Assembly (NCBI GenBank): GCA_964016885.1
Contig: OZ024740.1
Coordinates: forward strand, 382,726,001-382,790,000
Length of the DNA stretch: 64,000 bases
Reading direction: 5' to 3'
Source: Eledone cirrhosa
Lineage: Eukaryota
Position numbers and translations under genes: made by a program. Positions within the stretch are counted from its first letter, which is position 1, and each line of letters starts with the position of its first letter. Below the pieces are notes generated by a model. It saw nothing but the letters and a program-made list of their open reading frames with translations. It was not told where the DNA came from and searched no databases. Below are positions 7,645 through 60,902 of this stretch, in pieces.

Positions 7645-7715
7645 TATTTTATTATGCGCATTTCAAAAACAAATATCATCATGCAATAATATTTGTGTTT
7701 TCATCAGATAAAACA
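7645..7715 (-). ncRNA. Hammerhead family B
   Basis: Reverse complement of 7751-7821. Confidence 0.8.
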
Positions 7716-7750
7716 GGAAGACATGATATGAAGGTCATATCATGTCTTCC

Positions 7751-7821
7751 TGTTTTATCTGATGAAAACACAAATATTATTGCATGATGATATTTGTTTT
7801 TGAAATGCGCATAATAAAATA
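7751..7821 (+). ncRNA. Hammerhead family B
   Basis: TGTTTTAT-CTGATGA...GAAA-TGCGCA-TA-ATAAAATA. Confidence 0.8.
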
Positions 7822-8175: not shown

Positions 8176-8253
<78 letters not shown>

Positions 8254-8263
8254 AGCCAGTAAG

Positions 8264-8357
8264 ACCCCGACGGCTGAGCTGAAGCCGTTTCGACGGCTAA
8301 TTCTGGACTAAATGAAAATTTATCCTGGTATTTAAATAGCCGATCTTCTCAAGGGGT
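8264..8357 (-). ncRNA. Hammerhead family C with U3-A8 core (sense to the PLE ORF)
   Basis: Reverse complement of 11047-11140 with one substitution in stem III. Confidence 0.75.
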
Positions 8358-9469
8358 AATTCCATATATGGTCAAAGTGATTGTCAAAGTCAGTAGTAAT
8401 TCTGTGATTGCAAATTAGTGGGGGAGATGATGGCTAAACCTGCCAGTAGGAGAAAGAGTGCCAGCTACAGCTGGGCATGAGGTCAAAGAAGATACTGGGG
8501 AGGGGGAAGGGGAGGAAGTCGGAACGGTAGGTAGAACAATGAGGGGTAAAAATATATATGGAAGAAAAAATACTGAGAGTGAAGAAAAGCGAATAAGTGT
8601 AAAGAAAAAAGTAAAGCAAGTTCTACGACCTAAGTCTCTAGCTATTGTTAGGATAAATAAATAAATAAAGAAAGAAAGAAAGAAGTAAAGAAAGAAATAA
8701 AGAAATAACGGAATAAGTAAATGAACTAGGTGGGACGAATAGGCAAGGACACTTTTAAGAGGTATAAGTACGTAAATCATACGGTGACAGGTCAACAAAT
8801 GGGGCCAAAATACTAAAGAGACTACCACGAAATAAATAATAAAGGTTTCTATCCCGGGCACAATGCCAGCAACCACCCAGTGTAGCAAAGTAAACTAGTA
8901 CGAGATAATAATTCTGAGTCCCGAAAAAAATATATACTAATGCTAACTCTAAAAGATCTTAAACAAGCTACATGAAAGTTCGTACGAAGTAAAGGTAGAA
9001 TACGGAAAAATAAATTCAGAATCCACCCCGCCCAAAAGAAAAGCGAAGAAAGAAATACTGAAACGAGAAAATAAGGCATAGTGCCACTAAGAAATATAGA
9101 AGGCACGGAAAATAGTGGGAGCGGTCGAAAAAAGGGGGCAAGTATCCGGGGTCTAAACCAACTGCTATAAAAAGCGGAGTCCGCCAAATCTATCATAGAC
9201 TAGGGGAGGGGGTGGGGGTACTAAGGCTACAAGGGGCCAAAGGGCAGCCTCGGGTGGGCGAGAAAAGACGCCGACAAAGAAGAAGAGCTGGGGTAGAAGG
9301 ACTAAGGAGGGATGGGGGAAGGAAATAAAGGAAGCGATAAAAGAATAAAAAGAAGATCTTACGTCTCCCTTGGCAAGCAGGGGTTACCCATTGCAAGATC
9401 GGCAAGTGGGGTGTTATAGCCCTAGTCTACCCCCCCCCCGGTCATTATGGGGTTTGAGGGCGAGGTAAG

Positions 9470-10665
9470 TCCTACGCAATCTATGTTTACATGCAGTAAC
9501 CAGTTCATCTTTCTTGTTTAGGAGTTGGTCCGTCGAAAACAGCATTTGTAAAGTTTCCTCCGAGCATAAATTGCACGGACGGCGTCTTCCCGTGTAAGAA
9601 TTGGCTCTGGACAGTAATCTCCAAGTGAGATCATAGGTGATGTTGTTGTCCTTGAGGTCCCATATGTGGCCCGAAAGTGTAGTGGCGTGACGCCGGGCCG
9701 GGTTTCGGAAGGTATGTCTATGTTGGTATAGCCGGGTTTGAAGTCACATGCGGTAAGTCCTATATAGGCTTTGTTTGAGGTATCCGTCCTCACGTTGCAC
9801 TGGTAGATCACATTACGGTCTCTGCATCTATTGTCGAGTGGGCAAATGGATCTATCCGGACAGTTACACCTCCTGGTCGGATCTCCACTGCTATTTAGGT
9901 TATTTCTGCCATCGGGGTTGAGTTTTTTGTTGTTAGAGGAGACGATGTTTTGTGCGAAGTTTGGTGTAGTGCTGTAAGAGAGTTTGATGGTATTTTTGTT
10001 AATTATGTTGTGGTAGCGGTGTTGTAGTGGGAAGTGTTTTTCAATGAGCCTAAAGAATAGTTTACCGATGGGAGTTGTCACCTCTGCGTTGTGGGGAGGA
10101 TTGAACCATGTTACATTGCGTGAGAGGCGGTGTCTCCTGCTGGTTCCGCTAATGGGAGCTGGACAGTAGGATATTTCCTCCCGGAAACCACTCCGCTTGA
10201 GGGCCTGGTTGTAATACGTCGCATGTTCATCGAATATCCGCTCATTAGCTGACAAACGGGATATGCGGAGGGAGATGTTTTTGACCAGGTTGTTTGTGAT
10301 GTTCCTAGGATGGTTTGATCGGCGGTGGATGTAGTGCAGGTTGTCATTAGGTTTCCTGTATGGGTAGTACAGGTCGTTTTCGAGGTCGAGGGTCACGTCC
10401 AGGAAGTTTACTCGGGTCAGGGACGTTTGTAGGGTTATTTTAAATCCCCAGTCGCGGAAGAAGCTGATTAATTGTTTCCGGACCCGATCTGTACTACTGG
10501 GGTTGTACCGTTTAAGGGTAAGGAGCCCATCATCACGGTACAATCCACCACCGAATGCAGGAAACATATCAGTGAGTTTGGCTATTAGGAATAATCCTAT
10601 AAGATCTGTGACCTCCGCCGAATCCTTGGCGCCCATGCTGACGTCGAAGGGTGAGTCGGGGGCTC
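9470..10665 (-). pseudogene. PLE reverse transcriptase (C-terminal half) plus GIY-YIG endonuclease, one frameshift near 9730
   Basis: FDVSMGA, GLYRDDGL, NFLDVTL, CNC..CPL..C, VIYQC..YIGLT; continues in another frame as HIWDLK..CNLC..LNKKDEL..CKH. Confidence 0.92.
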
Positions 10666-11046
10666 TTTTTATCCATTTTCTTTCTTTACTTCTTTCTTTC
10701 TTTATTTATTTATTTATCTAGCCTAACAATAGCTAGAGACTTAGGTCGTAGAACTTGCTTTACTTTTTTCTTTACACTTATTCGCTTTTCTTCACTCTCA
10801 GTATTTTTTCTTTCATATATATTTTTACCCCTCATTGTTCTACCTACCGTTCCGACTCCCCCCCTCCCCAGTATCTTCTTTGACCTCATGCCCAGCTGTA
10901 GCTGGCACTACCAACGCTTGATTGGGTCTACTCCACCCCCTCCCCTCTTTCTCCTACTGGCAGGTTTAGCCACCATCTCCCCCACTAATTTGCAATCACA
11001 GAATTACTACTGACTTTTGACAATCACTTTGACCATATATGGAATT

Positions 11047-11140
11047 ACCCCTTGAGAAGATCGGCTATTTAAATACCAGGATAAATTTTCATTTAGTCCA
11101 GAATTAGCCGTCGAAACGGCTTGAGCTCAGCCGTCGGGGT
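11047..11140 (+). ncRNA. Hammerhead family C with U3-A8 core
   Basis: ACCCC-TTGAGAA-GA(T)CGGCTA...TAGCCGTC-GAAA-CGGCT-TGAGCTC-AGCCG-TC-GGGGT. Confidence 0.78.
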
Positions 11141-11231
11141 CTTACTGGTTCCTATTACCCACTCTACTACCCCAAGTATTGAGTACTTTGGTGCGTTATG
11201 GTCCACCTGGTTCCTTACCACATTTCCTTCG

Positions 11232-11274
<43 letters not shown>

Positions 11275-21056: not shown

Positions 21057-23153
21057 TTCTTTGAGTCTCAGTCTTTCATGTTATTTAACTGGAAAGTTTG
21101 TTGAGATGAATATCAAGCCACTACCTGCAGCCTCAGATATTCAGGAAGTATTGGAGGGTTCTTGCTGTTCCCAGCAAGCATGCCTTTTGAAGTTTTCCTT
21201 GGAAACTCTTTGAGATAGTACCTAGTGCGCCTATGACAATCGGGACCACTTTGATTTCATGGCAGTTCCAAATCCTGTTTACCTCCCACTTTAAGTCCTG
21301 GTATCGGTTAATTTTCTCCCTCTCCTTTTCTTACACTCTCGTGTCGAATGGGCAGGCCACATCCACAATCAGCACGATCTTTTTTCCTTGTCCCAAACCA
21401 CCAGGTCAGGTCTATTGTGTGCCAGCTTCTTGTCCGCCTGTATCCTAAAATCCCACAGCACCTTCACCTGATCGTTTTCTATCACCGACTCTGGCTTATG
21501 CTCATAACACTTCTCAGAATGTGGTAAATTGTTTACTTTGCATAGATGCCAAGGGATCACCCTGCCCATCACATCATGTCTCCAGCCTTTATAGTGAATC
21601 TGGGCTAGGTGTTTACACTCGGATACAATGTGAGCCACAGTCTCCTCTATCTCTCCACATATCCTACACAGTGGGCTAGCCTCCTCTTTGTAAATATGAT
21701 GTTTCAGCCACTTCGTTTTGAAGGCCTGCTCCTGCGCAGCCATTAGCATTCCTTCTGTAGCCTTTTTAAGGTATCCTTCTTTCAACCAGTTCCATGTCTG
21801 TGGATCTCTAAATTCCGTTTTCTCAAAGAAGGTACTATGAAGGGATTTTTCATGAAGGTTGCTCTTCCTCCTTGTTATTTCCTCCTTCGACATCCCCTGG
21901 TCTATTGTCCCCTCCTTCAGTACAATTCTGAACATTGGCTCCCTACTATCTGTCACGTATTTTTGTAGGTTGTTTTTTTGCATCTGAACATAGTCCTCTA
22001 TGCTGATAAATCCTCTTCCACCTTCAGATCTCCTTAAGTAGAGTCTATCGACATCACTCCTCTTGTGGTACATGTTGTAGATAGTCAATAGCTTCCTAGT
22101 CTTCCTATCCATTTCTTTTTGTTCAGCAACATTCCATCTCAGAATTCCCGCACTGTACCTAATAATAGAGACAGCTCGTGAATTTACTGCACTTATGGCA
22201 TTCCTACTGTTCAGGTGTGACTTTAATACGCTCCCTACTCTCCGAATGTATTCAGATCTTATCAATTCCTTCATTTTTTGTTCTTGATGTCATCAGCCTC
22301 CAGAACACCCAAATACCTGTATCCTTCTTCAGTGTCAATTTCCTTTATCATATCACCTGTTGGTACCTGGATTCCGTTGCTTCTGCTCAATTTACCCCTC
22401 TTCATTACAAGGACTCCAGACTTACTAATGCAAAATTGCATACATATATCATTGCTGAAAATACAGACAGTGTCAACAAGCACATCCAACTCCTTCTCAC
22501 TCTTCCCGAAGAGCTTAAGATCGTTCATGAAGAGGAGGTGATTGAGGGTAAGGTCTCCCTTTCCTAACTTGTATCCTCTCTCACTTTTTAAAGTATAATG
22601 GTCAGGGTCATCAGGGCAAGGACAAACAACAGAGGGGACAGGCTACCTCCCTGGAAGATACCTCTCTTGATCTTCACGCCTCCCAAGGATTCTCCAGCTG
22701 ATGTTAACGCTGTTTACTAGGACTTCATACTTTTGCCCAACAACTGTCTGATGTTATCTGCCACCTTGAAGAACTCTAGGATTTTGGTTATCCAAGAATG
22801 AGGCACCATGTCAAATGTCTTTTTGTAGTCTATCCATCCCATGGCAAGACCAGTGTGTCTCCTCATGCAATTCCTCATTACCATCTTATCGATAAGTAAC
22901 TGGTCCTTTGTACCACGTGACTTCTTTCGGCATCCTTTCTGTTCGTCCGGTAACAAGTTGTTTGTGTGGAGGTGATGGTAGATTTCCTCAGACATAATTC
23001 TTGTCAACAGTTTCCACATTACGGACAAACATGTGATAGGTCTATAGTTGGTAACATCATTACCCTTGATTCGGTCTTTCATTAACAGAACTGTGGTACC
23101 TTTTGTCGACCAATCTGGTACCTCACCTGACATCAAGCAGTCATTGAACATGG
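21057..23153 (-). mobile_element. R4/Dong-like RLE LINE, 5'-truncated
   Basis: YRPITCL, EQKGC, WIDYKK.FD, GIFQG, CRIC..H..C, RPDLVV; (TAA)n at both ends; same family as 61880-64000. Confidence 0.92.
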
Positions 23154-23167
23154 TTATTATTATTATT

Positions 23168-24510
23168 TCACTGAAAGGTCGCGCGGAGGTAGCGAATGCG
23201 TACATCGCGTCCGTCATCTATTACCGCCTAACCGTCGTGCCTTGCCCCCGTCCGCGCCTCGTCAAGTTGGAACGGCTCCTCTTCAAATTCTTGTGGAGGG
23301 GACAAGTTCCGTTGGTGAGGCGGTCCATCTGCTGCCAGCACCCTCTACGCGGAGGGCTGGGCATGCCGTGGCTAATGATGCGCAGACATGCGTTGAGGCT
23401 GCGACATCTGCAGATATTCTGCCTCAATGGTGAACAGGTGTGGTCGCCGTTTATCAGACGGGCCTTTCCGCAGCTCATTTCTTTGACTGAGCTGCAGTCC
23501 TGGGTCAAGAAGAGACCGAGACCGGGTGACTGGCACCTGGAATGTTGCCAGGCACTCATTGCCCTCTAACAAGCGGGCAATGCGATCAGTGGAACTTCCA
23601 CTCTCGAGTTCTATAGAGGATTAGTGGTGGGCAAGTGCGATGACGCACTCGGAGAAGCTTTGGGCCTCGACTAAGTCGAACTGAACAGTCTGTACCGGAG
23701 GACTTTTGAGCTGGGGAGGATGGACAATTTCCAGAAATCCCTCACTTGGCAGTGCTACCGGGGGGCACTGCCGGTTCGGGATAAACTCTACAGGCACGGA
23801 AGTGCTGTCAGACGGACCAGCCCAAGATGCGCACAGAACGACGAAACCGTTCAGCACGCACTTGTGCAATGTCCGTGCATTACTGACTTGTTGAATTATG
23901 TCGAACAGCTACTGTCGCGTGTGGAACGAATCTGGTTATCGGCCGATTACATAGTGAAGATCGAGCCGCCACCTTCCTTAGGTCAGGAAGAGCAGGACAT
24001 TTTCCTCTGTCTGGTGGCAGTTGCGAAAGAGATTATATGGTGGACCAGGTTGAAAGGACTAAAGACAGACACTTTTCTCTTCGGCCAATCCCTCATCAAC
24101 TTCTTCAAGTTTCACCTGGAAAGGAGGGTGAGGGTGGAGAGAGAAGTGCTGCCCCCCAGTACATTTGCTAAAAGGTGGGTGAATGTGGCGAGAATGGCTC
24201 GTGTGAATGGGCCTACTCTGGTCATGCGCCTATAGGCTGGCTAACTTGAGGAGAGGGGTGCTCTCCTGGGTGCCCTAGAAGCGCAGGGTGGTTCAGGATT
24301 GGTGGGGTACCCGAATCACCCCAGGGTCGTCCACCCCCTATCGGGGAATTTATTTTGTTATATTTTGCATTGTTTATTTTATATTTTTATATTTTCATTG
24401 TTAAATTAGTCTTGCCATTGTGCACTTTTACTCGACCTTATTGTAAACCCCCACTGTCCCTGTCTTTGTATTGTCCCCTACATGTCGGCCCTTGTGGCTA
24501 ATAAATGAAA

Positions 24511-24512
<2 letters not shown>
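23168..24512 (+). mobile_element. Tx1-like (L1 clade) LINE, 5'-truncated copy 1
   Basis: GGLGMP, C..C..ETVQHALVQCP; 3' UTR ends AATAAATGAAATC then (ATT)26. Confidence 0.9.
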
Positions 24513-24590
<78 letters not shown>

Positions 24591-24816
24591 GGCCGCATAT
24601 GTGTGAAGACAGACAAGTCTGCGGGGGAAAATGTTCGTAGCTTTAAGCTGTTTTAAAGCGTCTTTTTTTTGTATTTTCTTGTCATTAACGAAACTTAAGG
24701 TATACATCTTGATTTAAAGAGAGGGATACCTCTCAATATTCGGGCTTTAAGCCCGAATATTCAGATTTATTTTTTTAAAACTTCGAAAAAAATCGCTTCC
24801 CCACCAAAAGAAAATT

Positions 24817-26760
24817 ATGGAAATGTTAGATCTTGAAACGGTAAACAACGTTCAGGTCAAAAGTTTAAAGGCAGCCACTGCAGATTTCACCACGACTACG
24901 ACGGCTACAGTCATGCCTGTCATCCACTCTACTGAATGTGAAGGCAAAACTAAAAAGCTACCATCACAACCTTCTGCCATAGCAGCAGTATCATCTGAAA
25001 ACGACATCACCACCACCGCCACCACCACCACCACCACCACCACCACCACAACAACAACAACTCAGAGCAATAACGACAATACCACCGACAGCTTCAATGT
25101 AAACAAGGATGGCGGTGGCAACAGCAAGAATGACAACAACAACAATAAGAGCATCAGAAACACCACATTTGCTGCAGCAGCAGCAAAAACAAAGCGCTTA
25201 TTGAATATTGATATTGATATTAGCGATAAAGACGAACAGTTGGCCAAAGCGTGGAGGCTAATTAAATGGGAGAAGTCCTGGGCAAACCTGACCATCCTAG
25301 ACGAGGCAATAGCGGCCATGCAAAGGAGGACGGTGCTCTTTCGATGTATTTCGGTGCAGACACGAAAAGTGGAACTTGCGAGCCAAGCAGAGGTTGAGGC
25401 TGCTTTGGAGTACATCGGAAGTAACATAGAGTACAAAGCAAGAGGCAAACAGTTCGGTACCATCTCGGTACTGTTCAAAACCGAGGCCCTCGCTATTAAG
25501 CACTCGGTGATCCCCTGCAGAACGGAACACATTATCATGCATCCGTCCTATATGGGTAAAAGGACAGTGAAGGTACGCATTCCCAGCATCCCACCAGGAA
25601 TAAACATATGGTGGCTGCTGGGATGCGTAATCGAGGAGGGGACAGACACCACCCTCCTGGACATCAAAAGGACAGAGAGAGAGGACTGGTCCGGAATGGA
25701 TTTGGAGATTCTTCTCCAAATGAAACCGGAAGACATGAATAACATCCCAGATTTTGCCCGCCTGCAGGACGGGACAACAATCCAACTAATGATTGACGGA
25801 AAAGGCCACGCTGCTTCGTTTGCGGGGAAGCAACGCATCTTCAAGCCTTCTGCCCTCAGCGCAAAAATGCAGGGGGTCGCAAACCTCCTTTGTTGCCAAC
25901 GCCAGTGTCAGCACGGAAAGCTGCACCACCACCACCACCAAAAACAACATCAACAAAAACACGGACACCAACATCAAAAGCAGCCGGATCACCACCAACA
26001 CCAAAACCAATCCAAGGAGAAAACGAGGAAAGCTCTCCCACTCCCCCTACCCCCCCAATTATACACATAGACAAAAAAAAATAAATAAACGCACACACAG
26101 ACACAGAGACACTCACAGACACAGACCCTTTGTCTTCCAGCAGCGAAGATGAAGAAAAACCCCAAAGTGCAAAAAAACAGAGAAAACTCACACAAAAAAG
26201 CCCCAACAAAACATAAAAACACACACAACAAAAAATACAGACACCACTAACGCAAACACTTCCCCAATAACATCAGCACCATCAGCAACATCGACACCAC
26301 CTCCACAATCCACGAAACGCAAACAACCTAAACCAACACAAATACAAATAAACACACAAATACCTGAAATTGCAGACACCACACCTACAACAAACATAGA
26401 CATACCCGAAACAACACCACCAAAACCATCGCCACCACCTTCACCAAAACGAAAACAAATAAAACCACACCAACAAAATGTTAAAAAATTCGTGCTTGTC
26501 AGACGGGCCAACGATAAACTGATGGCCCTCTTAGCGCGAAGCGAGGACATTCAAACAGAGGGGGAGATTTTTGAAATGAGCACATTTTGCGTGCCAGAAA
26601 ATTTGCTTCTGGTCCGAATGTCACTCAATTCCTTCAAAGAAATTCGAGAGAGGTTTCCTCAAGACGTGGGAACCCCGAATGTGAAACCCACATCAAGACT
26701 TTTAAAGGGGTTCCCAAAAGAAACCCCACCAACCATGGAGGTCGAACCACCCGACCTTCA
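24817..26760 (+). pseudogene. Tx1-like ORF1 (low-complexity N-terminus, RRM-like region, CCHC knuckle after a frameshift)
   Basis: KRTVKVRIPSIPP; frameshifted RPRCFVCGEATHLQAFCP at ~25803-25860. Confidence 0.75.
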
Positions 26761-29712
26761 CATGGCCATATTAAGAGTAGGAAGTTTAAATGTTCGCGGC
26801 CTGGGGTCACCCTGGAAGCAGGGTCGCCTGCTCAACGACCTCCGGTCGCTGGAAATGGATGTGATTGCTGTAAGCGAGACCAGAATTTCCGACACGCGCG
26901 CACTAGCCCCTATTTTCGACAACTATCAGATCTTCTCATCTGTTAGCAGGCCGGGAATGGGGGGTGGGGTGGCAGTGCTGTTTAGGAAAGGACTGGATCT
27001 CGAGGTAAGGTCGATCTTCCGGGACCCGCACGGTAATTTGGTGGTCTTGGATGTGAGCAGTAGCGAAGGTGGTGCCTTTAGACTGCTGGCCGTCTACGCC
27101 CCTACAGGGACGGGACGACCTGACTTCTTTAGGCGCCTGGAGACCTTTCTGCGTACGTCTCGCCCTTTACTGTTAGCGGGCGACTGGAATGGCATCTTAG
27201 ACGCACGCTGGGATTGTGTGGGAGTAGCCGATAGGAGCGGGGGGGGGGGGGTGCAAAAGCCTCAAGCACCTACTCAGCCAGTTCCAACTGTCTGACAGGT
27301 ATCGACTAGATTTCCCCAATGTGCCAGTATGGACATGGACCAACCGAATGGGTCATCTAGATCGTATATAGACAGAATCTTCATTAGGAAAATCGATAGA
27401 AATAGTGTGGGCTGTGCACTTTTTAAAACGGTCACCTATTCAGGTCACAAATTTGTGATCTGTACGGTCGACCTAAATAAAACGCGTAGGTTAGGACCGT
27501 GTTACTGGAAGCTGAACATGTCATTTCCGGCACGTAAGGCTTACAGGGACCGAGTCAACAAGTTAGTTAAGCAAAAGTTGACAGGGGGGATCATCAACAA
27601 CAGATGGTGGGGGGCTCTCAAAAGAGAGATTAGAGTAACTTCGATAGAGTTCAGCAAAGAACTAGCGTTAGAGAAAAATAGAAAGGAGGGGGAGCTGGTA
27701 GATAAGTTAGACGAGGCTATTTGTAGTGGCACGCAACTGACGTGCGAGCGGCGAGAATGGCATTAGACCATTTCTTCAATGCCAAACACGAAGGTTGCAT
27801 TGTCAGAGCTAAGGCGCGTGCGCTGAGAAACGAGGGAACTAAAGCTGTTCGATGGGCCCGCGTGGCGGAGGCGCAGCGTGGTAATAAAACCACAATTCGG
27901 TCTTTGGCGGACCGAGACGGACACGAGATAAGCGATTCCAAGCGGATGTGTGAGGCCTTTCGCCAGCACTTTGCTCGGTTGTTCAGGGAGAGTGGCGAGT
28001 CAGAGAGAGTAGCGGATTTCAGTCCCTACCTTGACGGCTTGCCGCGCATCTCGACGGTCGACGCTGAGCGCTGCGAAAGGCCGATTACTTCAGCCGAAAT
28101 TCAGGACGCCCTTGTCGGCTGCATGAGGCGCAAGTCACCCGGTTTGGATGGCCTGCCCTACGAGCTTTACGTAAATATGCCAGACTTGTTCTCCGAACTC
28201 CTCGAAGCACTCTACTGTAACTGGCAGCATAATGGGAGTATTCCCAGTTCTGTGAGCAGGGGAGTGGTGACGCTGATAAGGACAGACGAGAACAAGAGGG
28301 ATACATTAGACAACTTCAGGCCCATAACTCTGCTCAACACAGAGTTTAAGATTTTGGCCAAGGTTTTAGCAAAGAGATTGGCGCTTGTCGTCGAGGATTT
28401 TGTTGGGGAGGCGGAAACTTGCGCAATCCCTGCCAGGTCCATACACGACAATCTCCACCTGATGCGATACATCATAGAGAGGGTGGGGTGTAAACCTGGC
28501 TTCGGTGGGGGCACTGATCAATTTAGATCAATCGAAAGCATTCGATAGTGTCGACCATCGGTATCTGGAGTTTGTCCTCAAAGCAGCTGACTTCGGCCCT
28601 ATCTTTAGAAGCTGGATCCTTGCAATGCACAGCGGCACACGCTCGGTGGTCAAGGTTAATGGCCACCTCTCGGAACCATTTCGGCTCTCCCGATCGGTCC
28701 GTCAAGGGTGCCCTCTCTCTTCCCTTCTGTACGTATTGACTCTCGAGCCTTTACTGCGGAAGCTGGAGTTGTTGCAGGGCATCCCGCTCGAAGCGGGACG
28801 TGGAAAGGCGGTGTCGGCTTATGCGGACGGCATCACCGTGATGGTGTCGAACACCTCAGAAATCGAGGTGGTCGGCACCTTATTGAAGGAATATTCTGCC
28901 TCAATGGTGAACAGGTGTGGTCGCCGGTTATCAGACGGGCCTTTCCTCATCTCATTTCTTTGACTGAGCTGCAGTCCTGGGTCAAGAAGAGACCGAGACT
29001 GGGTGACTGGCACCTAGAATGTTGCCAGGCACACACTGCCCTCTACCAAGCGGGCAATGCGATCAGTGGAACTTCCACTCTCGAGTTCTATAGAGGATTA
29101 GTGTTGGGCAAGTGCGATGACGCACTCGGAGTAACTTTGGGCCTCGACGAAGTCGAACTGACCAGTCTGTACCGGAGGACTTTTGAGCCGGGGACGATGG
29201 ACAATTTCCAGAAATGCCTCGCTTTTCAGTGCTACCGGGGGGCACTGCCGGTTCGGGATAAACTCTACAGGCACGGAAGTGCTGTCAGACCGACCTGCCA
29301 AATATGCGCACAGAACGACGAAACCGTTCTGCACGCACTTGTGCAATGTCCGTGCATTACTGACTTGTGGAGTTATGTCGAACAGCTACTGTCGCGTGTG
29401 GAACGAATCCGGCTATCGGCCGAGTCCATAGTGAAGATCGACCCGCCCCCTTCCTTAGGTCAGGAAGAGCAGGACATTTTCCTCTATCCGGTGGCAGTTG
29501 CGAAAGAGATTATATGGTGGACCAGGCTGAAAGGACTAAAGACAGACACTTTTCTCTTCGGCCAATCCCTCATCAACTTCTTCAAGTTTCACCTGGAAAG
29601 GAGGGTGAGGGTTGAGAGAGAAGTGCTGCCCCCCAGTACATTTGCTAAAAGGTGGGTGAATGTGGCGAGAATGGCTCGTGTGAATGGACCTACTCTGACC
29701 ATGCGCCTATAG
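26761..29712 (+). pseudogene. Tx1-like ORF2 (APE endonuclease, RT, CCHC), frameshifted
   Basis: SLNVRGL, VSETR, AGDWN, YIDRIF, YWKLN, KSPGLDG, FRPITLLN, DQSKAFD, VRQGCPLS. Confidence 0.92.
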
Positions 29713-29988
29713 GCTTGCTAACTTGAGGAGAGGGGTGCTCTCCTGGGTGCCCTAGAAGCGCAGGGGGGTTCAGGATTGGTGGGGTACCCGAATCACCCCA
29801 GGGTCGTCCACTCCCTATCAAGGAATTTATTTTGTTATGTTTATGCATAGTTTATTTTATATTTTTATATTTTCATTGTTAAATTAGTCTTGCCATTGTG
29901 CACTTTTACTCGACCTTATTGTAAACCCCCACTGTCCCTGTCTTTGTATTGTCCCCTACATGTCGGCCCTTGTGGCTAACAAATGAAA

Positions 29989-30020
<32 letters not shown>

Positions 30021-33000
30021 GAATGCTATGGTTGACGGAGGCTCGGCTCTGTAAGGTATTGTAAATTTTGACCGCTATAACAATTGTAAATTGTTTAAAA
30101 CTTTAACCAAATTGTAGACAAAAACACCCTGCTCCTCGTGAGAGGGGTCTTTCTGTCCGTTATTTGGCCCTTCAGGGTTAAATAACCGCTTATTGGGGTT
30201 TTGTGCCCAATATTTATTTTAAACGAAAAATAATTTTCACAAGTCACACCCACTCATTCCGTCTTCTTCCTCAATCGTCACTACAGCAGAATGAAGATTT
30301 TCTCTCTCTCTCCCTTCTCTAAATGTGTCTCTCTCCCTCCCTTCTCTTTCGCAAGCGACGCCAGTAAAGAAAAATAGTTTACAAAATCACGTGCAAATCA
30401 AGGAAAATTTCTCCACGACGACAACAACGACGAAAAAGGTGTGCGGGAAATACGAAAACCGATTTCATTCGTCTGACGTCATAAATAATAGCAGTAGCAG
30501 CCGTAATAACAGCAGAAGCAGCAAAAGTGACAAGGAAAACAACAGTAGCAGCCGCAACAGCATCAGCAGAAGCATAAAAAACAACAGCATTAGCAGCAGC
30601 AGCAACAACAACAACAACCACAGCAACAGCGGCGGCGGCAGTAGTCGTAGTACCTGCAGCAACAACAAAAGTAACAGCAGCTCTGACGACAACAACAACA
30701 ACAACAACAACAGCAGCAAATAAAAACCAATCTCGTTTGCAGGTATCGCAAAGAACCTGGAAACCATCCTCATAATACATGAGGAATTACAGGAAGCGAA
30801 GAAGATGGTGACGAAAACCTGACACCGAGGAATCAGCAAGGCAGCCGACACATTTTTCGAAACCCAACAGCAGTGTACGGTCACGTCCCGTACAGTAAGC
30901 ACAAAATCCCGTAGAGTTGAAAGAGCCACAGAGGCTCAAATACAAAAAGTCTTAGGGTCTGTGTGGCAGCGGAAAACGCATATCACCCGAGGCAAGAAAT
31001 ATGCCACCGTAGACGTGCCACACCCCAGGAGGCAAAGGCTCAATCATTAGTGACCCTAAGGAGCGAGGAAATGGTGTTGGTGTCCTCCTACTGCGGCCAA
31101 AAAATTGTGAGGGTCAGACTGACCCACGTGCCCCCCCCCCCCCACAGGATGGCCCCTTCTTGGCTGGCTGCGTCTGTCCTCGTCGGAATCGAGGACAAAA
31201 CAACTGTACTGCAAGTACAGAAAAAAGTAAGAGAAGATTGGGTCGGCACCTCCATTGAGATGTTAATCCAAACCAACCAGGAGTGCATCAAAGCTATCCC
31301 GGATGTGATAGACTTCGATAACGGCACTCAGCTGCCCATAAGTGTTGAGGGCAAACGCCCGAAATGCTTTCGCTGTGGATCGAAGACACACCTCAGGGCC
31401 TTCTGCAACGAGAAGACCCTGAGAAAGGACCACGGCTACCAGCAGCAGAACAAGTGGCAACCAGGAACGATAGGTCCGTGGCTCCCATACCCACGTCACG
31501 GAAATCAAGAACAGTAGCAGCAGTGGAAGTATTAACAACAACAGCAGTAATACCAAATGCAGCTGCAACAGAGACTCCACTGCAAACATCACCAACAACA
31601 ACAAGTGAAAGAGTGGAGCTGGTACCCCTCCCCGACCTCACAGAATCAGACATGGAGTGTGAGGTGGGAGAGGGATGGCAAAAGGTCGTAAGAAGGCACA
31701 AACGAAGAAGCAGCACATCGCCGACTTCGAAAAGGGAGGAAAGAAATGAAAAAAGGGTAAAGTCTACTGCAAAGGATGGAGAAACCATCCTTCCTCTACG
31801 AAAAGTACGGTAAGTGGTCGTTCCCATCTTTTCCACTCCATTTTAAACATTGATCTCACTCAGAATAAGCAGCATAAATGCGCGTGGCTTGGGGTCGTCA
31901 TGGAAGCAGGGTCACCTGCTCAACGAGCTCAGATCACTAAACATAGATGTAGTGGCCATCAGCGAGACCAGAATCTCCGAAGCACAGGCCTTCGCACCGA
32001 TCTTCGGCGGCTACGATATGTACGCATCTCCCAGCCGTCCTGGATCGGGGGGAGGAGTTGCTGTGATTTTTCGGAGGGGTTTGCATCTCGCCATACGGGC
32101 CATCTTCCTGGACCCAGAGGGTAAGTTGGCGGTGATGGACGTGACAAGCGGAGACGGGCAAGCTTTCAGGCTAGTGGCCGTCTATGCCCCGACAGGAGCA
32201 GGGCGGCCTGATTTCTTCCGGCGTCTGGAGACCTTTCTTGGAACGCACCGCTCTTTAGTGTTAGTGGGCGACTGGAACGGGATCTTAGATGCACGCTGGG
32301 ACTGTGTGGGATTAGCGGATAGGGGTGGAGGGTGAAAAAGCCTCACCAACCTGCTCAGGCGTTTTGAACTGTCTCACAGGTACCGATTGGATTTCCCGAT
32401 AGTGCCAATGTGGACTTGGGCAAATCGCATAGGGTCATCCAGATCATATCTAGATAGAGTATTTTGTAGGAAATCGATAGGTCTAGTATAGGCTGTCCAC
32501 AATTCAAGATAGTCAGCTACACGGACCACAACTGTGTGCTTCACTTAGATAGGCTTCATAGACGAGGACCCGGCTACTGGAAGCTAAACGCGTCCTTACC
32601 AGCGCACAAGGCCTACACAGACCGGATTAGCGAACTAGTTAAGCGGGCGTTGACGGGGGCCATCGTCAACAACAAGTGGTGGTTTGCTTTGAAAAGAGCG
32701 ATTAGAATAGAATCCATTAGGTTTAGTAAGGCTTTCGCAATAGAGAAAAATAGAACAGAGGGAGAACTAGTTAGAAAATTAGACGAGGCGCTTAGTAAAG
32801 GTATCGCGATCGACGTGCTTCCGGCGAAATTGGCCCTTGACCAATTCTTCAATGCAAAGCACGAAGGCTGCGTTGTCAGAGCTAGGGTGCGTGCTCTCAG
32901 ACACGAGGAGACGAAAGCCGTTCTAGGCCCGAGTGGCGGAGGCGCGTCGTGGCAACAAAGCCACGATCCGGTCTTTGGTGGACCACGACGGGCGCATGCT

Positions 33001-35482
33001 ACTCGATGCCGGGAAAATGTGTGAAGTTTTTCAGCGACACTTCGCTCAGCTGTTCGGGGGCAGCGGTGGGCCGGGTCGAGGGATGGACTTTAGTGTCTAC
33101 CTCGACGGACTGCCGCGGCTCTCGGCCACTGAGGCGGAGTGTTGCGAAAAGCCGATAACAGCAGCTGAAGTACGGGAGGCAATGACTGGCTGCATAAGGG
33201 GTAAATCGCCTGGTTTGGATGGTCTGCCCTATGAACTTTACGTACAGATGCCAGACTTGTTCGGAGGCCTCTTGGCGGACGTCTACTGCAACTGGCAACA
33301 TAACGAGAGAATTCCCAGCTCTGTGAGCCGAGGAGCGGTGGCACTGCAGAGAAAGGATCCGAACAAGGGGGATAACATAGATAATTTCAGGCCCATAACT
33401 CTGCTAAACACAGGGTTCAAGATTATGGCCAAGGTGCTAGCAAAGAGGTTGGCGCTTGTCGTTGGTGGTCTGGTGGGCGAGGCGCAGACGTGCGCCATTC
33501 CCGACAGATCCATCCAAGACAATCTCCACCTCATGCGATACATCGTAGAGACGGTAGCTAGGGAACCTGGCACGGGTGGGTCCTTGATCAATTTAGATCA
33601 GTCGAAAGCTTTCAATAGGGTCAACCATCGTTACCTAGCGGCAATCCTGAGGGCGGCTGGCTTTGTGCGCGTCTTCAGAGGCTGGATCGCTCTGTTGTGA
33701 GACTGAACGGTCACCTTTGGAACCGTTCAACATCATGCGCTCGGTCCGCCAAGGATGTCCCCTCTCGTCCCTCTTGTACGTATTGACTCTCGAGCCATTA
33801 CTGCACAAACTGGAGACGTTGAGGGGCGTCCCGCGCGAACTAGGATGCGGAAGATCCGTGTCAGCATATTCGGACGATCTCACCATAGTGGTGTCGAACG
33901 CCAAACACATGGAGGCGATCGGCACTACACTAAGAGAATACGAAGCGGTGACAGGAGCAATGATCAACCAGGAAAAGTCAGTGGGCCTGCAGCTCGGCAC
34001 CTGGAGAGGCAGATCCATGCCGTCCAACAGCGTCGTCGGACGCTGGACGGACGGACCGGTTAAATTGCTAGCGGTATGGTTCGGTCCGGACCTCCAGACG
34101 GACAAAAACTGGGACGAGGTGACGTGCAGGGTGGCTTCTCTCACCCAGAAATGGGCGGAACGGAAGCTATCCATGAAAAGTCGAGCGGAGGTGGCTAACG
34201 CGTACATTGCGTCTGTCATCTGCTACCGCCTGACCGTCGTAACTTGTCCTAAGCCCCACCTGACTGCGCTGGAGCGTATGCTCTTTCGCTTTTTGTGGAA
34301 GGGACGCGCTCCGATGGTCAGGCAGTCCATCTGCTGTCAACACCCACTACGTGGAGGGCTGGGCATGCCGTGGCTTATGATGAGTAGACACGCGCTCAGG
34401 CTACGACATCTCCACCTCTTCCTCGACGGTGATCAGGTGTGGTCGCCGTTTGCTAGACACGTATTTCCCCAGCTCGTTTCCTTGACGGAGCTGCAGTCCT
34501 GGGTCAAGCGAAGACCGAGAGGGAGCGCCTGGAGACTGGAATGTCTTCAGGCGCTCACAGCCCTCGATCAATCGAGCAATGTGATCGGTGGAAACTCCAC
34601 CTCGGCGTTCTATAGATGATTAGTGGAGGGGAGGAGCGACGACGTACTTGGGGAAACTCTAGGCGTCGACGAAAATCAACTAGCCAATCTCTTCGGAAGA
34701 ACTTTCGGGCCGGGGCCTATGGACAACTTCCAGAAATCTCTGGCCTGGCAGTGCTACCGAGAAACCTTGCCAGTTCGGAATAAACTCTACAGGCATGGAG
34801 GTGCCGTCAGCCGGGCATGTCCGAGATGCGCGCAAGGCGACGAAACCGTCCTGCACGCACTCGTCCAGTGTCCGAACATTGCTGACTTGTGGGTTTATGT
34901 CGAACACCTGCTGTCGCGTGTAGGACGGATCCGGCTATCATCTGAGTCCATCGTGAGGATTGCCACACCCTCTTCCTCTAGCCGAGAATGGCATGCAGTT
35001 TTTATCTGTCTGGTGGCCATGGCGAAAGAGATAGTATGGTGGACGCGTTTGAAAGGGCTGAAGACGAGCACTTACCTCTTCGGTGATGCCCTGATTAACT
35101 TTTTCAAATTTCATTTGAAAAGGAAAATCAGGGTAGAGAGGGAAGTGTTCTCTTCCCAGCATTTTGTTGAAATATGGGTGAGAGAAGCAAGAATGGCCCG
35201 AGTGAATGGGCTTACTCTGAGTATGTATCTGTAAATTAAAGTTGGAAAACTGGGAGAGGGCACTTGCCTTGGTGGTCAGGGTCACTGTGGTCTTTTACTG
35301 GGCTTTCTCCACAAATGTCCCTCCGAAGTCTCCCCCCTATTGGGGAATTTTTCATTGTTTTTTTTTGTTACATCCTCTGTTTTTGTTTATTACACGCAGA
35401 AATGCCCATTTGTACCGTCCTGTATTTTCCTGCACTGTCCTTAATGTCTACTTTATGTAAACCCTTGTCGTTAATAAAGAAA

Positions 35483-43565: not shown

Positions 43566-44547
43566 TCCTTATATATATGTGCCTATATAAGAATGATTAT
43601 ATATACACGGCTACGTATCTATATATGTTACTCTGTATGAATGCATAAGATATAAGTGTTGAAAAATACTAACAATGTAAAATATATTAACAATTGTCAA
43701 GGATCTATAATAGCCGTTACACTGTTTTTTGTTTTTTTTCAATAATATAACAAAGACTTTCGAGAAATCGAATAATATAAAACATTTTGAATAATATAAT
43801 ATATTTCAATGAATAGAAGTCACCAGAAATGTAGTCTTATTGAGTGTTGACGGAATTAATGTTAAAAACTAACATACAAAATAAAAAAAATAAATTAACA
43901 AAGAATGCAAATAGCAATACAACCAAACTATTTAATTGGTACATATTCTTAGCATTAGTATAATATGTTTAAGGAAATAAAATAATATAATCAGAATTTT
44001 GTTTAGCAAGCTAACATGCGTGCTAAGAAGTAACATACTGTTTCAGCACTTTAAATATGAAGAAAGAAATCTGAAACCAAGATAATCACAACATCAATGA
44101 TAAAACGAACAATGTTATCACTAAATTAGAAAGTTTTAAAAAATCAAAGTCAAATCTACAATAACGTTAGTCAAATCTATAAAACAACAGCATGTTATTT
44201 ACATTAATACCCACAGACAATTGTGGTTAGTAAACAAAATAACAAGAGGAAATTTATTAGCTAACCACTTGCTTGGAGGAATTCTGTATCGTGTCATGAT
44301 TGCTTATGTCTGGATAAGTTTTGCTTCACTTTTGCAATTCTTCATTTGCTTATAATTTGGCTTTCTTCAATTTTTCTTCTGTATTTTCTCATTTATTTTT
44401 GAACGAGTAACAATGTACATATTTTATGTCAGGTTAGGTATACACGTGTGTGCATATATATATATATATATATATAGGAACGAGTAGGACGCAGACGGCT
44501 TAGCTCAAGCCGTTTCGACGGCTAATTCTTGACTATATATATATATG

Positions 44548-58714: not shown

Positions 58715-58716
<2 letters not shown>

Positions 58717-60902
58717 GTATAAAATGTTAACATCAGTCCTAACTGAATACACATATGACCACCTGATAACAAATGATCTATTTCCTATTGAGCAGAAAGG
58801 GTGTAAACGAGGCTCATATGGCTGTAAGGATCAGCTTCTAGTTAACAAAATGATACTGGAAGATTGTCATAATAGACACAAAAATATATCGATTGCTTGG
58901 ATAGATTATAAAAAAGCATTCGATAGTTTGCCACACAGTTGGATTGAAAAATGTTTAGAGATTTTCAAAATATCCCCCGTTGTCAGGAGGTTTTTGTCAT
59001 TCAGTATGAAGACATGGAAAACGACACTCCTTTTGAATAGAGAAACAAAATCACTGGAAGCTGGAGAAGTTAATATTAATTGTGGAATTTTTCAGGGTGA
59101 CTCTTTATCACCGCTTTTATTCTGCATCGCACTTATACCATTAAGTAAAATGCTCAATGAAACAAAACATGGATATAAAATCTATGACAAAACCATTAAT
59201 CACCTGTTCTACATGGATGACCTGAAACTATTTGCAAAAAATGATGAACAATTGCAAGGGCTATTATCCACTGTGGAGCAGTTCAGTGATGACATTAAAA
59301 TGGAGTTTGGACTAGATAAATGCGCCAAAGCAACGTTCACCAGAGGAAAGCTGCTGAAGAGTTCAGACATTAATCTTGATCGGGGGAACGTGATAAGAGA
59401 ACTTGATCAAGAAAAAACTTACAAATATCTAGGTGTTTGTGAAGGAGACGGAATCAAGCACTCGACAATGAGGGAAAGGATAAGGAAGGAATGTTACCGC
59501 AGAGTAAGAGCAATCTTAAGAACGGAATTGAATGCAAGGAATAGGATCGATGCCTTAAACACGCTTGCCATACCAGTAGTAACCTACAGTTACAATGTCA
59601 TCAACTGGTCAAGCACAGAGATCCGTAGGCTCGATACAAAAATTCGAAAATTCTTAACCACGCACAGAATGCATCACCCTAAAGCAGATATAGATAGAAT
59701 ATATCTCCCTGGGAAAGAAGGAGGACGTGGGTTAATCCAGTTAGACATTGCGTTGAAAACTGCAACAATTGGATTATCTACATATCTAAGGGAATCACAT
59801 GGTTGGATGATCAAACTCGTTTTGAAACACGAAAGCATCAAAAGATCATATTCCATTACAAAAGATGCACAAAGATACAGTAATGGACTACAAATTTCAG
59901 AAGTCCCATTTACTGCTGAAATGGAAAACACAGAAAAAGCAAAGCAGGTAAAATTACTGCAAAGAAAGAACTGCTACAGAAACTGGCTAAGAAATGGCAA
60001 GAAAAGCCTCTGTATGGAAAATATCTAGAGCGAGCTAACAATCCTGATGTTGACAAAACTTTAACCCATCAGTGGTTGGCATCCTCTGGACTGAAATAGG
60101 AGACTGAAGGACTGATTATATCAGCACAAGATCAGTGTCTGCCAACAAAAAATTACCAAGCCAACATAATAAAAATGGATGCAGCCCATTATGCCGTGTA
60201 TGCAAAAAACAACCAGAGACCATTGACCATATAATTTCAATGTGCAGTCCTATAGCTCCAACCGAATACCTAAACAGGCATGACAGAGCTGCACAATACA
60301 TACATTGGATAATGTGTAAGCATTTTGACCTGCCCCATCAAAAGAATTGGTAGGAGCACCAACCACCTCCCATACTTGAAAACGATCACATCTCAAACTT
60401 GTGGAACTTTAGCATCCAAACAGACCGAAAAGTAGATGCAAATAGACCTGATATAATATTGAAGGACTTTAAAAAGAGGGTATGCCTGCTAATTGATATG
60501 TCTGTTCCAATAGACAAGAATGTATCTATAAAAACATTTGAAAAATTGAGCAAGTATAAGGACCTGGAGATAGAAATTGGAAAAATGTGGAAATTGAGAA
60601 CTAAAACAATACCAGTGGTTGTAGGCGCTCTGGGAATGATACCTAAGGGGTCTAATGATTACTTATCGCAAATCCCAGGAAACGCGCGTATAGGAGAAAT
60701 ACAAAAGATAGTACTAATGGGAACTGCCCATATACTAAGGAAGATTCTGTCAATATAAGTACATCACATGTCTAAACACTAAAGATGCATGTGTGAGTAT
60801 GTATGTTCTTTCTTGAACATGGCGGACCTTGTTGTCTCTTGAGGTCACTGGTGGTGACTTGGTGATAACTCGTATGAACATAAAGCAAGATAAATGCAAC
60901 TG
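58715..60902 (+). mobile_element. R4/Dong-like RLE LINE (second family), 5'-truncated, embedded in (TAA)n
   Basis: EQKGC, WIDYKKAFD, GIFQGDSLSP, YMDDLK, CRVC..H..C, RPDII..IDMSVP; (TAA)n at 58679-58713 and 60903-60923. Confidence 0.93.

What the first reader, a model, noticed from the sequence alone, without database searches (positions are those of the whole stretch)
11047..11140. PLE hammerhead with non-canonical U3-A8 core (UUGAGAA)
Seen: 5-bp stem I, a G-C-closed stem II with a long loop, near-palindromic stem III and a GUC cleavage triplet, but the core reads TTGAGAA. The mirror copy at 8264-8357 has the same core. Established: positions 3 and 8 form a Watson-Crick pair in the active fold and U3-A8 is a tolerated, uncommon swap. 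Inference: a compensatory double change implies selection for activity, and CUGANGA-based searches would miss it. Here it is attached to a clear Neptune-like RT/GIY-YIG ORF.
Basis: partly seen in the sequence, partly recalled or inferred. Interest (0 to 1): 0.75.

Follow-up and report, generated by a model that had tools for sequence, protein, structure and literature searches.

The report
Penelope hammerhead lost, regained core pair
This is a real hammerhead-shaped RNA motif at the end of a very abundant jumping gene and its U-A core pair is already published, but the family kept multiplying while that pair was mismatched and likely regained it later, so self-cutting is likely a side activity rather than a requirement for jumping.

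Summary
Observation confirmed. 11047-11140 (+) is a type I hammerhead motif with U3/A8 (11052/11057) and C17 at 11135; its mirror at 8264-8357 differs at one loop base. Both arms come from one insertion.

The element is Hydra-clade, not Neptune (CxCX5C linker, DKT, TA target). U3-A8 is already published for PLE hammerheads (PMC4209133).

An ORF tree of 32 copies forms one age-ordered ladder: U3-A8, then C3·A8, then U3-A8 again. The pair was therefore dispensable for amplification and was likely regained. About 415 of about 16,400 tailed arms start exactly at the predicted cut site (about 164 one base later), often both arms at once, which likely records occasional cleavage. Most arms cross the site uncut. 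This copy is truncated, frameshifted, and its 11047 arm is antisense to the ORF.

The scan found this family before elsewhere in this genome, including the mismatch and the footprint; the age order was not in the notes I saw. No cleavage assay or RNA data.

The parts
11041..11152 (+). Type I hammerhead motif including distal stem I, on the inverted 5'-truncated arm (antisense to the ORF of this copy)
11052..11058 (+). Core strand U3-U4-G5-A6-G7-A8-A9
11133..11136 (+). GUC triplet; predicted cut between C11135 and G11136, where an excess of family arms begins
11085..11110 (+). Loop II / stem II zone where most short family arms begin (inferred transcription start or RT stop)
   Evidence: 19 of 30 sampled arms; distribution of 90 arms
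10677..11155 (+). Inverted arm: last ~480 nt of the element (3' UTR / pLTR with hammerhead)
11156..11233 (+). One-sided tail (start of the next tandem unit), followed by (TA)n
   Evidence: matches the sequence after the hammerhead in tandem units; same end point in most sampled arms
8264..8357 (-). Second hammerhead copy, in sense at the 3' end of the ORF-bearing arm, abutting (TA)n
8252..10676 (-). 5'-truncated Hydra-clade PLE copy (RT fragment, linker, EN, 3' UTR)
9414..10676 (-). ORF remnant from about residue 302 of 717: RT motifs, CxCX5C linker, GIY-YIG; frameshifted within the EN region
44476..44534 (-). Short solo arm of the same family (3' half of the hammerhead only) in (TA)n

Best explanation
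This motif is the pLTR hammerhead of a young, very abundant Hydra-clade Penelope-like retrotransposon; it likely cuts its RNA only occasionally, and the element likely copies itself mostly from uncut RNA, so the U3-A8 pair is likely useful but not required. Inferred cycle: the RT-EN protein nicks both strands of a (TA)n target and primes two cDNAs at two internal sites just downstream of the hammerhead (after TTCC, and at the tail end). The cDNAs run 5'-wards across C17 and are joined head to head, giving two inverted arms with a tail on one side. Most arms stop in loop II (likely the transcript's 5' end), a few percent stop at the cut site (likely ribozyme-made 5' ends), and long arms such as this one likely come from read-through tandem transcripts. 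Shown by counts and tree: the family carries U3-A8 and C3·A8 subfamilies on one ladder. Inferred from copy ages and an outgroup: the order was U3-A8, C3·A8, U3-A8. This particular copy is dead as a transposon.
For: Anatomy and Hydra motifs. Intact 784-codon frames and a tandem array of 3,531-bp units, each with the UUGAGAA core (5 of 5 motifs). Core counts 3,530 / 1,134 / 13 / 4. ORF tree of 32 of 52 copies: mean terminal branches 0.059 (old U3, n=8), 0.033 (lineage-B U3, n=7), about 0.021 (C3, n=10), 0.015-0.021 (U3, n=3), 0.003 (youngest U3, n=4); a single U3 clade is rejected (deltaL 119, p-AU 2e-6). Protein outgroups root within the old U3 group. The oldest subfamily has U3 in 97 of 100 listed and C3 in 0 (counted by eye). 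Both states occur within one loop-II subfamily (8 C3, 11 U3), so the return was a point change. With all 7 core positions left free, A8 held in 100 of 100 and U4/G5/A6/A9 in 98 of 100, while N7 varied (by eye). Arms that keep C17 number 15,127, against 745 with another base there. Cut-site starts: 39 of 70 sampled from the 745, giving about 415 (323-504); one base later 10 of 30 of 492, giving about 164 (85-260); 5 of 90 over the nine positions 11126-34, giving about 93 each. In 14 of the 39, both arms end exactly at the cut with 1-6 extra letters between them. In vitro precedent: in an anole PLE, hammerhead mutants did not affect insertion, both target strands were primed, and RT began at two internal sites bounding the tail (PMC11167929).
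Against: No cleavage or RNA data exist here. Three of 90 sampled arms start at 11135 (about 500 if scaled), which fits RT stalling at the base of stem III as well as cleavage plus a chance C. Cut-site starts were not significantly enriched in U3-only subfamilies (24:12 against 51:37; p=0.42), although the comparison class mixes C3 and U3. The U-C-U order rests on terminal-branch ages from few copies and on an outgroup at about 50% identity (support 69-97, long-branch attraction possible; a site count gave only 5 against 3 and 3 against 4). The AU test used 2,000 replicates and printed a warning. A return transition beside a C-run could be neutral. Structure covariation in 17 distinct copies does not exceed shuffles (54 of 500). 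Copies were found by patterns that fix much of the stems, so stem conservation is partly built in.
Confidence: 0.62

Rival explanations
1. Cleavage is essential to the element and U3-A8 is a strictly maintained compensatory pair; C3·A8 copies would be defective passengers moved in trans, or rescued by a C·A wobble or by the protein.
For: The rest of the core is unchanged. The oldest and youngest subfamilies are U3-A8. There is a cut-site excess. The anole PLE hammerhead is protein-assisted.
Against: C3·A8 copies number 1,134 in four loop-II types and form the backbone between old and young U3 groups, spanning at least about 0.049 of about 0.16 substitutions per site (summed by hand), with their own ORFs in cis. 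They were therefore masters, not passengers. All single mutants of this core region had low activity in PMC9901934. Three natural copies of the middle subfamilies fold the hammerhead helices poorly (II 0.17-0.45, III 0.10-0.43, the two C3 copies lowest) against 0.75-0.99 for three others.
Confidence: 0.15
2. The hammerhead is vestigial. The sequence is conserved as a promoter and as the RT binding/priming region, position 3 drifts, and the starts at 11136 are RT stalls or joins favoured at the G-run.
For: Most arms begin inside the motif. Positions 3 and 8 are independent. Starts at 11135 may be as common. There is no U3 enrichment and no significant covariation. U3-A8 was not a rescuing swap in one pairwise scan.
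Against: Both arms end on the same base, with non-templated letters between them, in 14 of 39 cases. N7, the free core position, changes along the ladder while U4, G5, A6, A8 and A9 do not. A stem III change in the youngest subfamily keeps pairing as G·U.
Confidence: 0.18
3. C3·A8 is the ancestral half-way state from C3-G8, and U3 arose twice to restore the pair.
For: All 26 Hydra hammerhead rows in the PMC8557442 supplement are CUGANGA, so C3 is ancestral for the clade; the unrooted ladder allows it.
Against: The most decayed subfamily is U3-A8 and the outgroups root there.
Confidence: 0.05

Closest known systems
U3-A8 minimal hammerheads of Cercyon PLEs, Schistosoma mansoni (Cervera & de la Peña 2014, PMC4209133; parts 1-2 of 4 read)
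   Same: Type I hammerhead in a PLE pLTR, U3-A8 core missed by CUGANGA descriptors, over a thousand dispersed copies, G10.1-C11.1, inverted pairs.
   Different: Here stem III has 5-6 bp (predicted to fold as a monomer), loop II is long with a sub-hairpin, there is no extra base between 9 and 10.1, the clade is Hydra, and a C3·A8 phase is recorded.
Hydra clade of C-terminal EN+ PLEs (Craig et al. 2021, PMC8557442; section 11, passages and supplement part 2 read)
   Same: RW[K/R], DKT, CxCX5C linker, CxxC and CxH in the EN, no CCHH, (TA)n target, inverted truncated arm with a one-sided tail.
   Different: The unit is 3,531 bp (Hydra elements are generally under 3 kb); the core is non-canonical, whereas 26 of 26 listed Hydra rows are CUGANGA; copy number is in the tens of thousands. 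The 13-mer GCCGTCGAAACGG does not occur in that supplement.
PAc (Poseidon) PLE of Anolis carolinensis (Frangieh et al. 2024, PMC11167929; parts 1-2 of 4 read)
   Same: Two internal RT start sites bounding the tail, both target strands primed, AT-rich target, hammerhead dispensable for insertion in vitro.
   Different: PAc has a C3-G8 core, and no RNA ends were found at its cut site; here an excess of DNA copies starts at the cut site.
Natural U3-A8 hammerheads (Perreault et al. 2011, PMC3088659; passages read)
   Same: The same covariation, reported in several natural ribozymes and cited there as active in vitro.
   Different: The passages read do not describe an amplified C3·A8 mismatch class.

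Membership tests
Type I hammerhead ribozyme | Three helices around the core, ends in stem I | tested here: met
   93% of cells paired against 25-51% for slid controls
Type I hammerhead ribozyme | Core YUGANRA / GAAA / NUH with 3-8 Watson-Crick pair and A15.1-U16.1 | tested here: met
   U3-A8, GAAA and GUC in this copy; not met in 24% of counted family copies
Type I hammerhead ribozyme | Match to an Rfam hammerhead model | tested here: not met
   no hammerhead family among 45 matches at E<=1 in 1-30000; the long loop II and variant core may explain this (inference)
Type I hammerhead ribozyme | Covariation of stems across copies | tested here: inconclusive
   stems are almost invariant; score reached by 54 of 500 shuffles
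Type I hammerhead ribozyme | Loop I - loop II tertiary contact | not tested
   an internal loop in stem I and a long loop II are present; the contact was not modelled
Type I hammerhead ribozyme | Self-cleavage after N17 | not testable with these tools
   only indirect: excess of arm starts at 11136
Hydra-clade PLE | Single ORF, RT with C-terminal GIY-YIG EN | tested here: met
   717-aa protein in a natural tandem unit; 2,049 homologues, best full-length about 42%; the local Pfam scan gave no hit
Hydra-clade PLE | RWK and DKT motifs | tested here: met
   RLRWRTF (K to R, as in 3 of 5 homologues shown) and HSDKTGN
Hydra-clade PLE | CxCX5C linker; CxxC and CxH around the EN E and N | tested here: met
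   CNCPDRSIC, PCNLCSEE, TACKH
Hydra-clade PLE | CCHH motif absent from the EN | tested here: met
   only one Cys between VIY and YIG (by inspection; the motif's position is recalled)
Hydra-clade PLE | (TA)n insertion | tested here: met
   both ends here, and most sampled copies
Hydra-clade PLE | Generally under 3 kb with a canonical hammerhead (typical, not diagnostic) | tested here: not met
   3,531-bp unit and U3-A8 core
Hydra-clade PLE | RT tree placement with named Hydra references | not tested
Neptune PLE | CX2-5CxxC zinc-finger linker | tested here: not met
   pattern absent from the full protein
Neptune PLE | CCHH motif in the EN | tested here: not met
   by inspection

The most novel reading that the evidence does not exclude
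The genome holds a dated natural mutagenesis of a ribozyme: one retrotransposon lineage broke its hammerhead's 3-8 core pair, spread for a long stretch with the mismatch, then restored it by reversion, and each subfamily's rate of insertions starting at the cut site is a fossil read-out of its in vivo cleavage.
Probability: 0.35. Interest if true: 0.62.

Novelty: new member of a known kind. Interest (0 to 1): 0.38.

Why it matters
What PLE hammerheads are for is still open (PMC8557442 calls their function unclear; PMC11167929 found them dispensable in vitro). This family supplies matched natural variants (paired, mismatched, re-paired) with copy numbers, relative ages and a candidate cleavage footprint, so the question can be tested directly with sequences that exist in nature. 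The U3-A8 core itself is not news.

Tried and rejected
Rfam gave no hammerhead hit. Pfam gave no hit for the truncated or the full ORF. A DNA search of the genome with the motif returned nothing, and the tool says it skips very common words. A search for a canonical-core relative in this genome gave 64 matches, mostly chance CTGANGA upstream of truncated arms plus about ten scattered single-change family copies, and no subfamily (read by eye).

No RNA holder was listed. Contigs of a second organism's run showed no other letter at positions 3 or 8 where they covered the core, but coverage was thin (21 contigs laid in all), so this was not used for rooting. Contigs of run X1 show C at 11052 in about 25% of depth, but X1 may be the source sample and is not independent.

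An alternative register for C3 copies (N7 deleted, CUGA-GA-A) was considered and not adopted: it needs a 6-nt core strand and fails in the CUGAAAA and CUGAUAA copies. The 5' starts of 13 ORF-complete copies were mixed; 1 lay at the cut site. Divergence within the hammerhead region alone did not order the subfamilies (0.049-0.059 for the four oldest) because those columns were fixed by the search. One search used a mis-registered structure and is superseded; one pair index (distal stem I) was also off and is ignored. One search printed nothing.

Papers not held: Przybilski & Hammann 2007 (seen only as a reference), Lünse et al. 2017 (reference only), and one id tried from recall. Searches for G8A/C3U kinetics gave no rate for C3·A8. 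A search for PLE copies starting at the cut site returned one review whose passages do not report it. These searches cover an open-access library only. I saw part 2 of 59 of the PMC8557442 supplement plus two term searches, and no supplements of the other papers.

Full report
Observation. The motif is present as described: stem I 11047-51/11136-40, core TTGAGAA 11052-58, G10.1-C11.1, GAAA, stem III and GUC with C17 at 11135. Folding adds a distal stem I and a hairpin in loop II. The mirror at 8264-8357 differs at one loop base. It is the other arm of one insertion, not an independent copy (7 substitutions in 437 nt). The fold is not more stable than shuffles (z -1.28) and Rfam does not report it. 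The motif is real because of its exact core geometry and its family, not its energy.

Element. From left to right: (TA)n, a minus-strand copy 8252-10676 truncated within RT and frameshifted in the EN, an inverted arm 10677-11155, a tail to 11233, and (TA)n. The hammerhead in the finding lies on the inverted arm, antisense to the ORF. In a fold of the two arms together, 93 of its 94 bases pair with the other arm. The family is young: the best 150 scored matches were the window's own copy and 149 at 96-97% identity, many in frames of about 784 codons, and one array has 3,531-bp tandem units, each with the UUGAGAA core. The protein has RWR, DKT, CxCX5C, CxxC and CxH and lacks the Neptune CX2-5CxxC linker. 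This fits the Hydra clade as defined in PMC8557442 section 11. I did not place it in a tree with named references.

Prior art. PMC4209133 reports U3-A8 instead of C3-G8 in S. mansoni PLE hammerheads, missed by the first descriptor, with about 1,300 hits. PMC3088659 reports natural U3-A8 covariation and cites in vitro activity. [quoted passage not shown] All 26 Hydra rows in the PMC8557442 supplement are CUGANGA.

Covariation test. With the seven core positions left free, 4,876 copies matched; in the first 100, A8 was invariant and position 3 was C in 20 (by eye). Fixed 33-mers gave U3-A8 3,530, C3·A8 1,134, U3·G8 13 and C3-G8 4. The expectation for C3-G8 under independence is 4.1 (p=1.0). These are exact-match counts of arms, so they are lower bounds and many insertions count twice. 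No canonical-core subfamily was found. The compensatory change from C3-G8 predates all copies seen.

Order of events. I fetched 80 longer regions and recovered 52 copies with ORF in cis. The tree used 32: 18 had under 780 nt of ORF and 2 did not reach the ORF end. It is one ladder, and terminal branches shorten along it: old U3-A8 0.059, next U3-A8 0.033, C3·A8 about 0.021, U3-A8 0.015-0.021, youngest 0.003. A single U3 clade is rejected (p-AU 2e-6, 2,000 replicates). The most decayed subfamily has U3 in 97 of the 100 listed (176 matches in all) and C3 in none. Protein outgroups root within it with modest support, and a direct site count is equivocal. One loop-II subfamily holds both states, so the return to U3 was a point change. 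The inferred order is U3-A8, C3·A8, U3-A8, with the mismatch phase at least about 30% of the lineage's length (summed by hand). In the middle subfamilies the hammerhead helices are also predicted to fold poorly; in their majority folds the core strand pairs with stem III. The reversion suggests selection but does not prove it, since one transition beside a C-run could be neutral.

Does it cut? Most copies cross C17 intact: 15,127 tailed arms keep C17. Only 7 of the first 30 15-mer hits have the 5' half of the ribozyme, and most arms start at about 11091-11101. An earlier scan note suggested that this zone is a transcription start; I confirmed the clustering but not its cause. Among 745 arms with another base before the G-run, 39 of 70 sampled start exactly at 11136 (29 were point changes or G insertions, 2 deletions), which scales to about 415, or 2.5% of tailed arms. 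The comparison values are about 164 one base downstream and about 93 per base over 11126-34. In 14 of the 39, both arms end on that base with 1-6 extra letters between them, as expected if RT ran off a discrete RNA end. Against this: 3 of 90 arms start at 11135, and U3-only subfamilies are not significantly enriched (p=0.42). No RNA run was available.

Mechanism. Shown: architecture, counts, tree shape and start positions. Taken from PMC11167929 by analogy: priming on both target strands, two internal RT starts bounding the tail, and insertion from uncleaved RNA. Inferred: transcription from loop II yields the many short fold-back insertions, tandem read-through yields long ones such as this, and occasional cleavage yields the minority starting at 11136. 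The ribozyme is likely a weak or conditional cutter that the element can do without for long periods.

Novelty. The motif is a new member of a known kind. Earlier scan notes on other pieces of this genome describe the same or similar families, the mismatch class and the footprint. They are unreviewed and are not counted as support. My core counts and tree were made before reading them; the start-site test was prompted partly by one of them, and the footprint notes were seen afterwards. The age-ordered loss and regain was not in the notes shown or in the papers searched. Interest 0.38.

Noticed in passing
G000 genome-wide; L001-L030, L308-L337, L368-L427: Tens of thousands of short head-to-head insertions of about 60 + 140 nt consist only of the 3' half of the hammerhead plus the tail; they could be misannotated as MITEs.
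   Followed up: partly
L168/L169 (G000:C1:437198500-437215500); also C1:91.47-91.49 Mb: Head-to-tail arrays of near-identical intact 3,531-bp units; the reading frame is open for 67 codons upstream of the first Met, starting within stem III of the hammerhead.
   Followed up: partly
copies: The distance from ORF end to hammerhead grows along the ladder, from about 630 nt (oldest) to about 1,100-1,170 nt (younger subfamilies).
   Followed up: no
L302: ORF-internal sense sequence joined directly to the post-cut G-run; it could be a template switch or a ligation onto a cleaved end.
   Followed up: no
window 7677-7789: A long near-perfect palindrome of about 113 nt between TA runs, probably another fold-back insertion (gives spurious miRNA hits).
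   Followed up: no
window 660-1011/4204-4555, 2433-2809/3452-3828, 4654-4816/5041-5203: Further long inverted repeats, possibly other PLE-type inversions or MITEs.
   Followed up: no
window 21369-35234 and 58715-60028: Several LINE-type fragments (Exo_endo_phos, RVT_1, zf-RVT hits) with (ATT)n tails, in a repeat of about 5.5 kb.
   Followed up: no
one search matches such as L131, L133, L134: CTGATGA/CTGACGA-AGGAC motifs upstream of family arms look like pieces of other canonical-core hammerhead families sharing TA targets.
   Followed up: no
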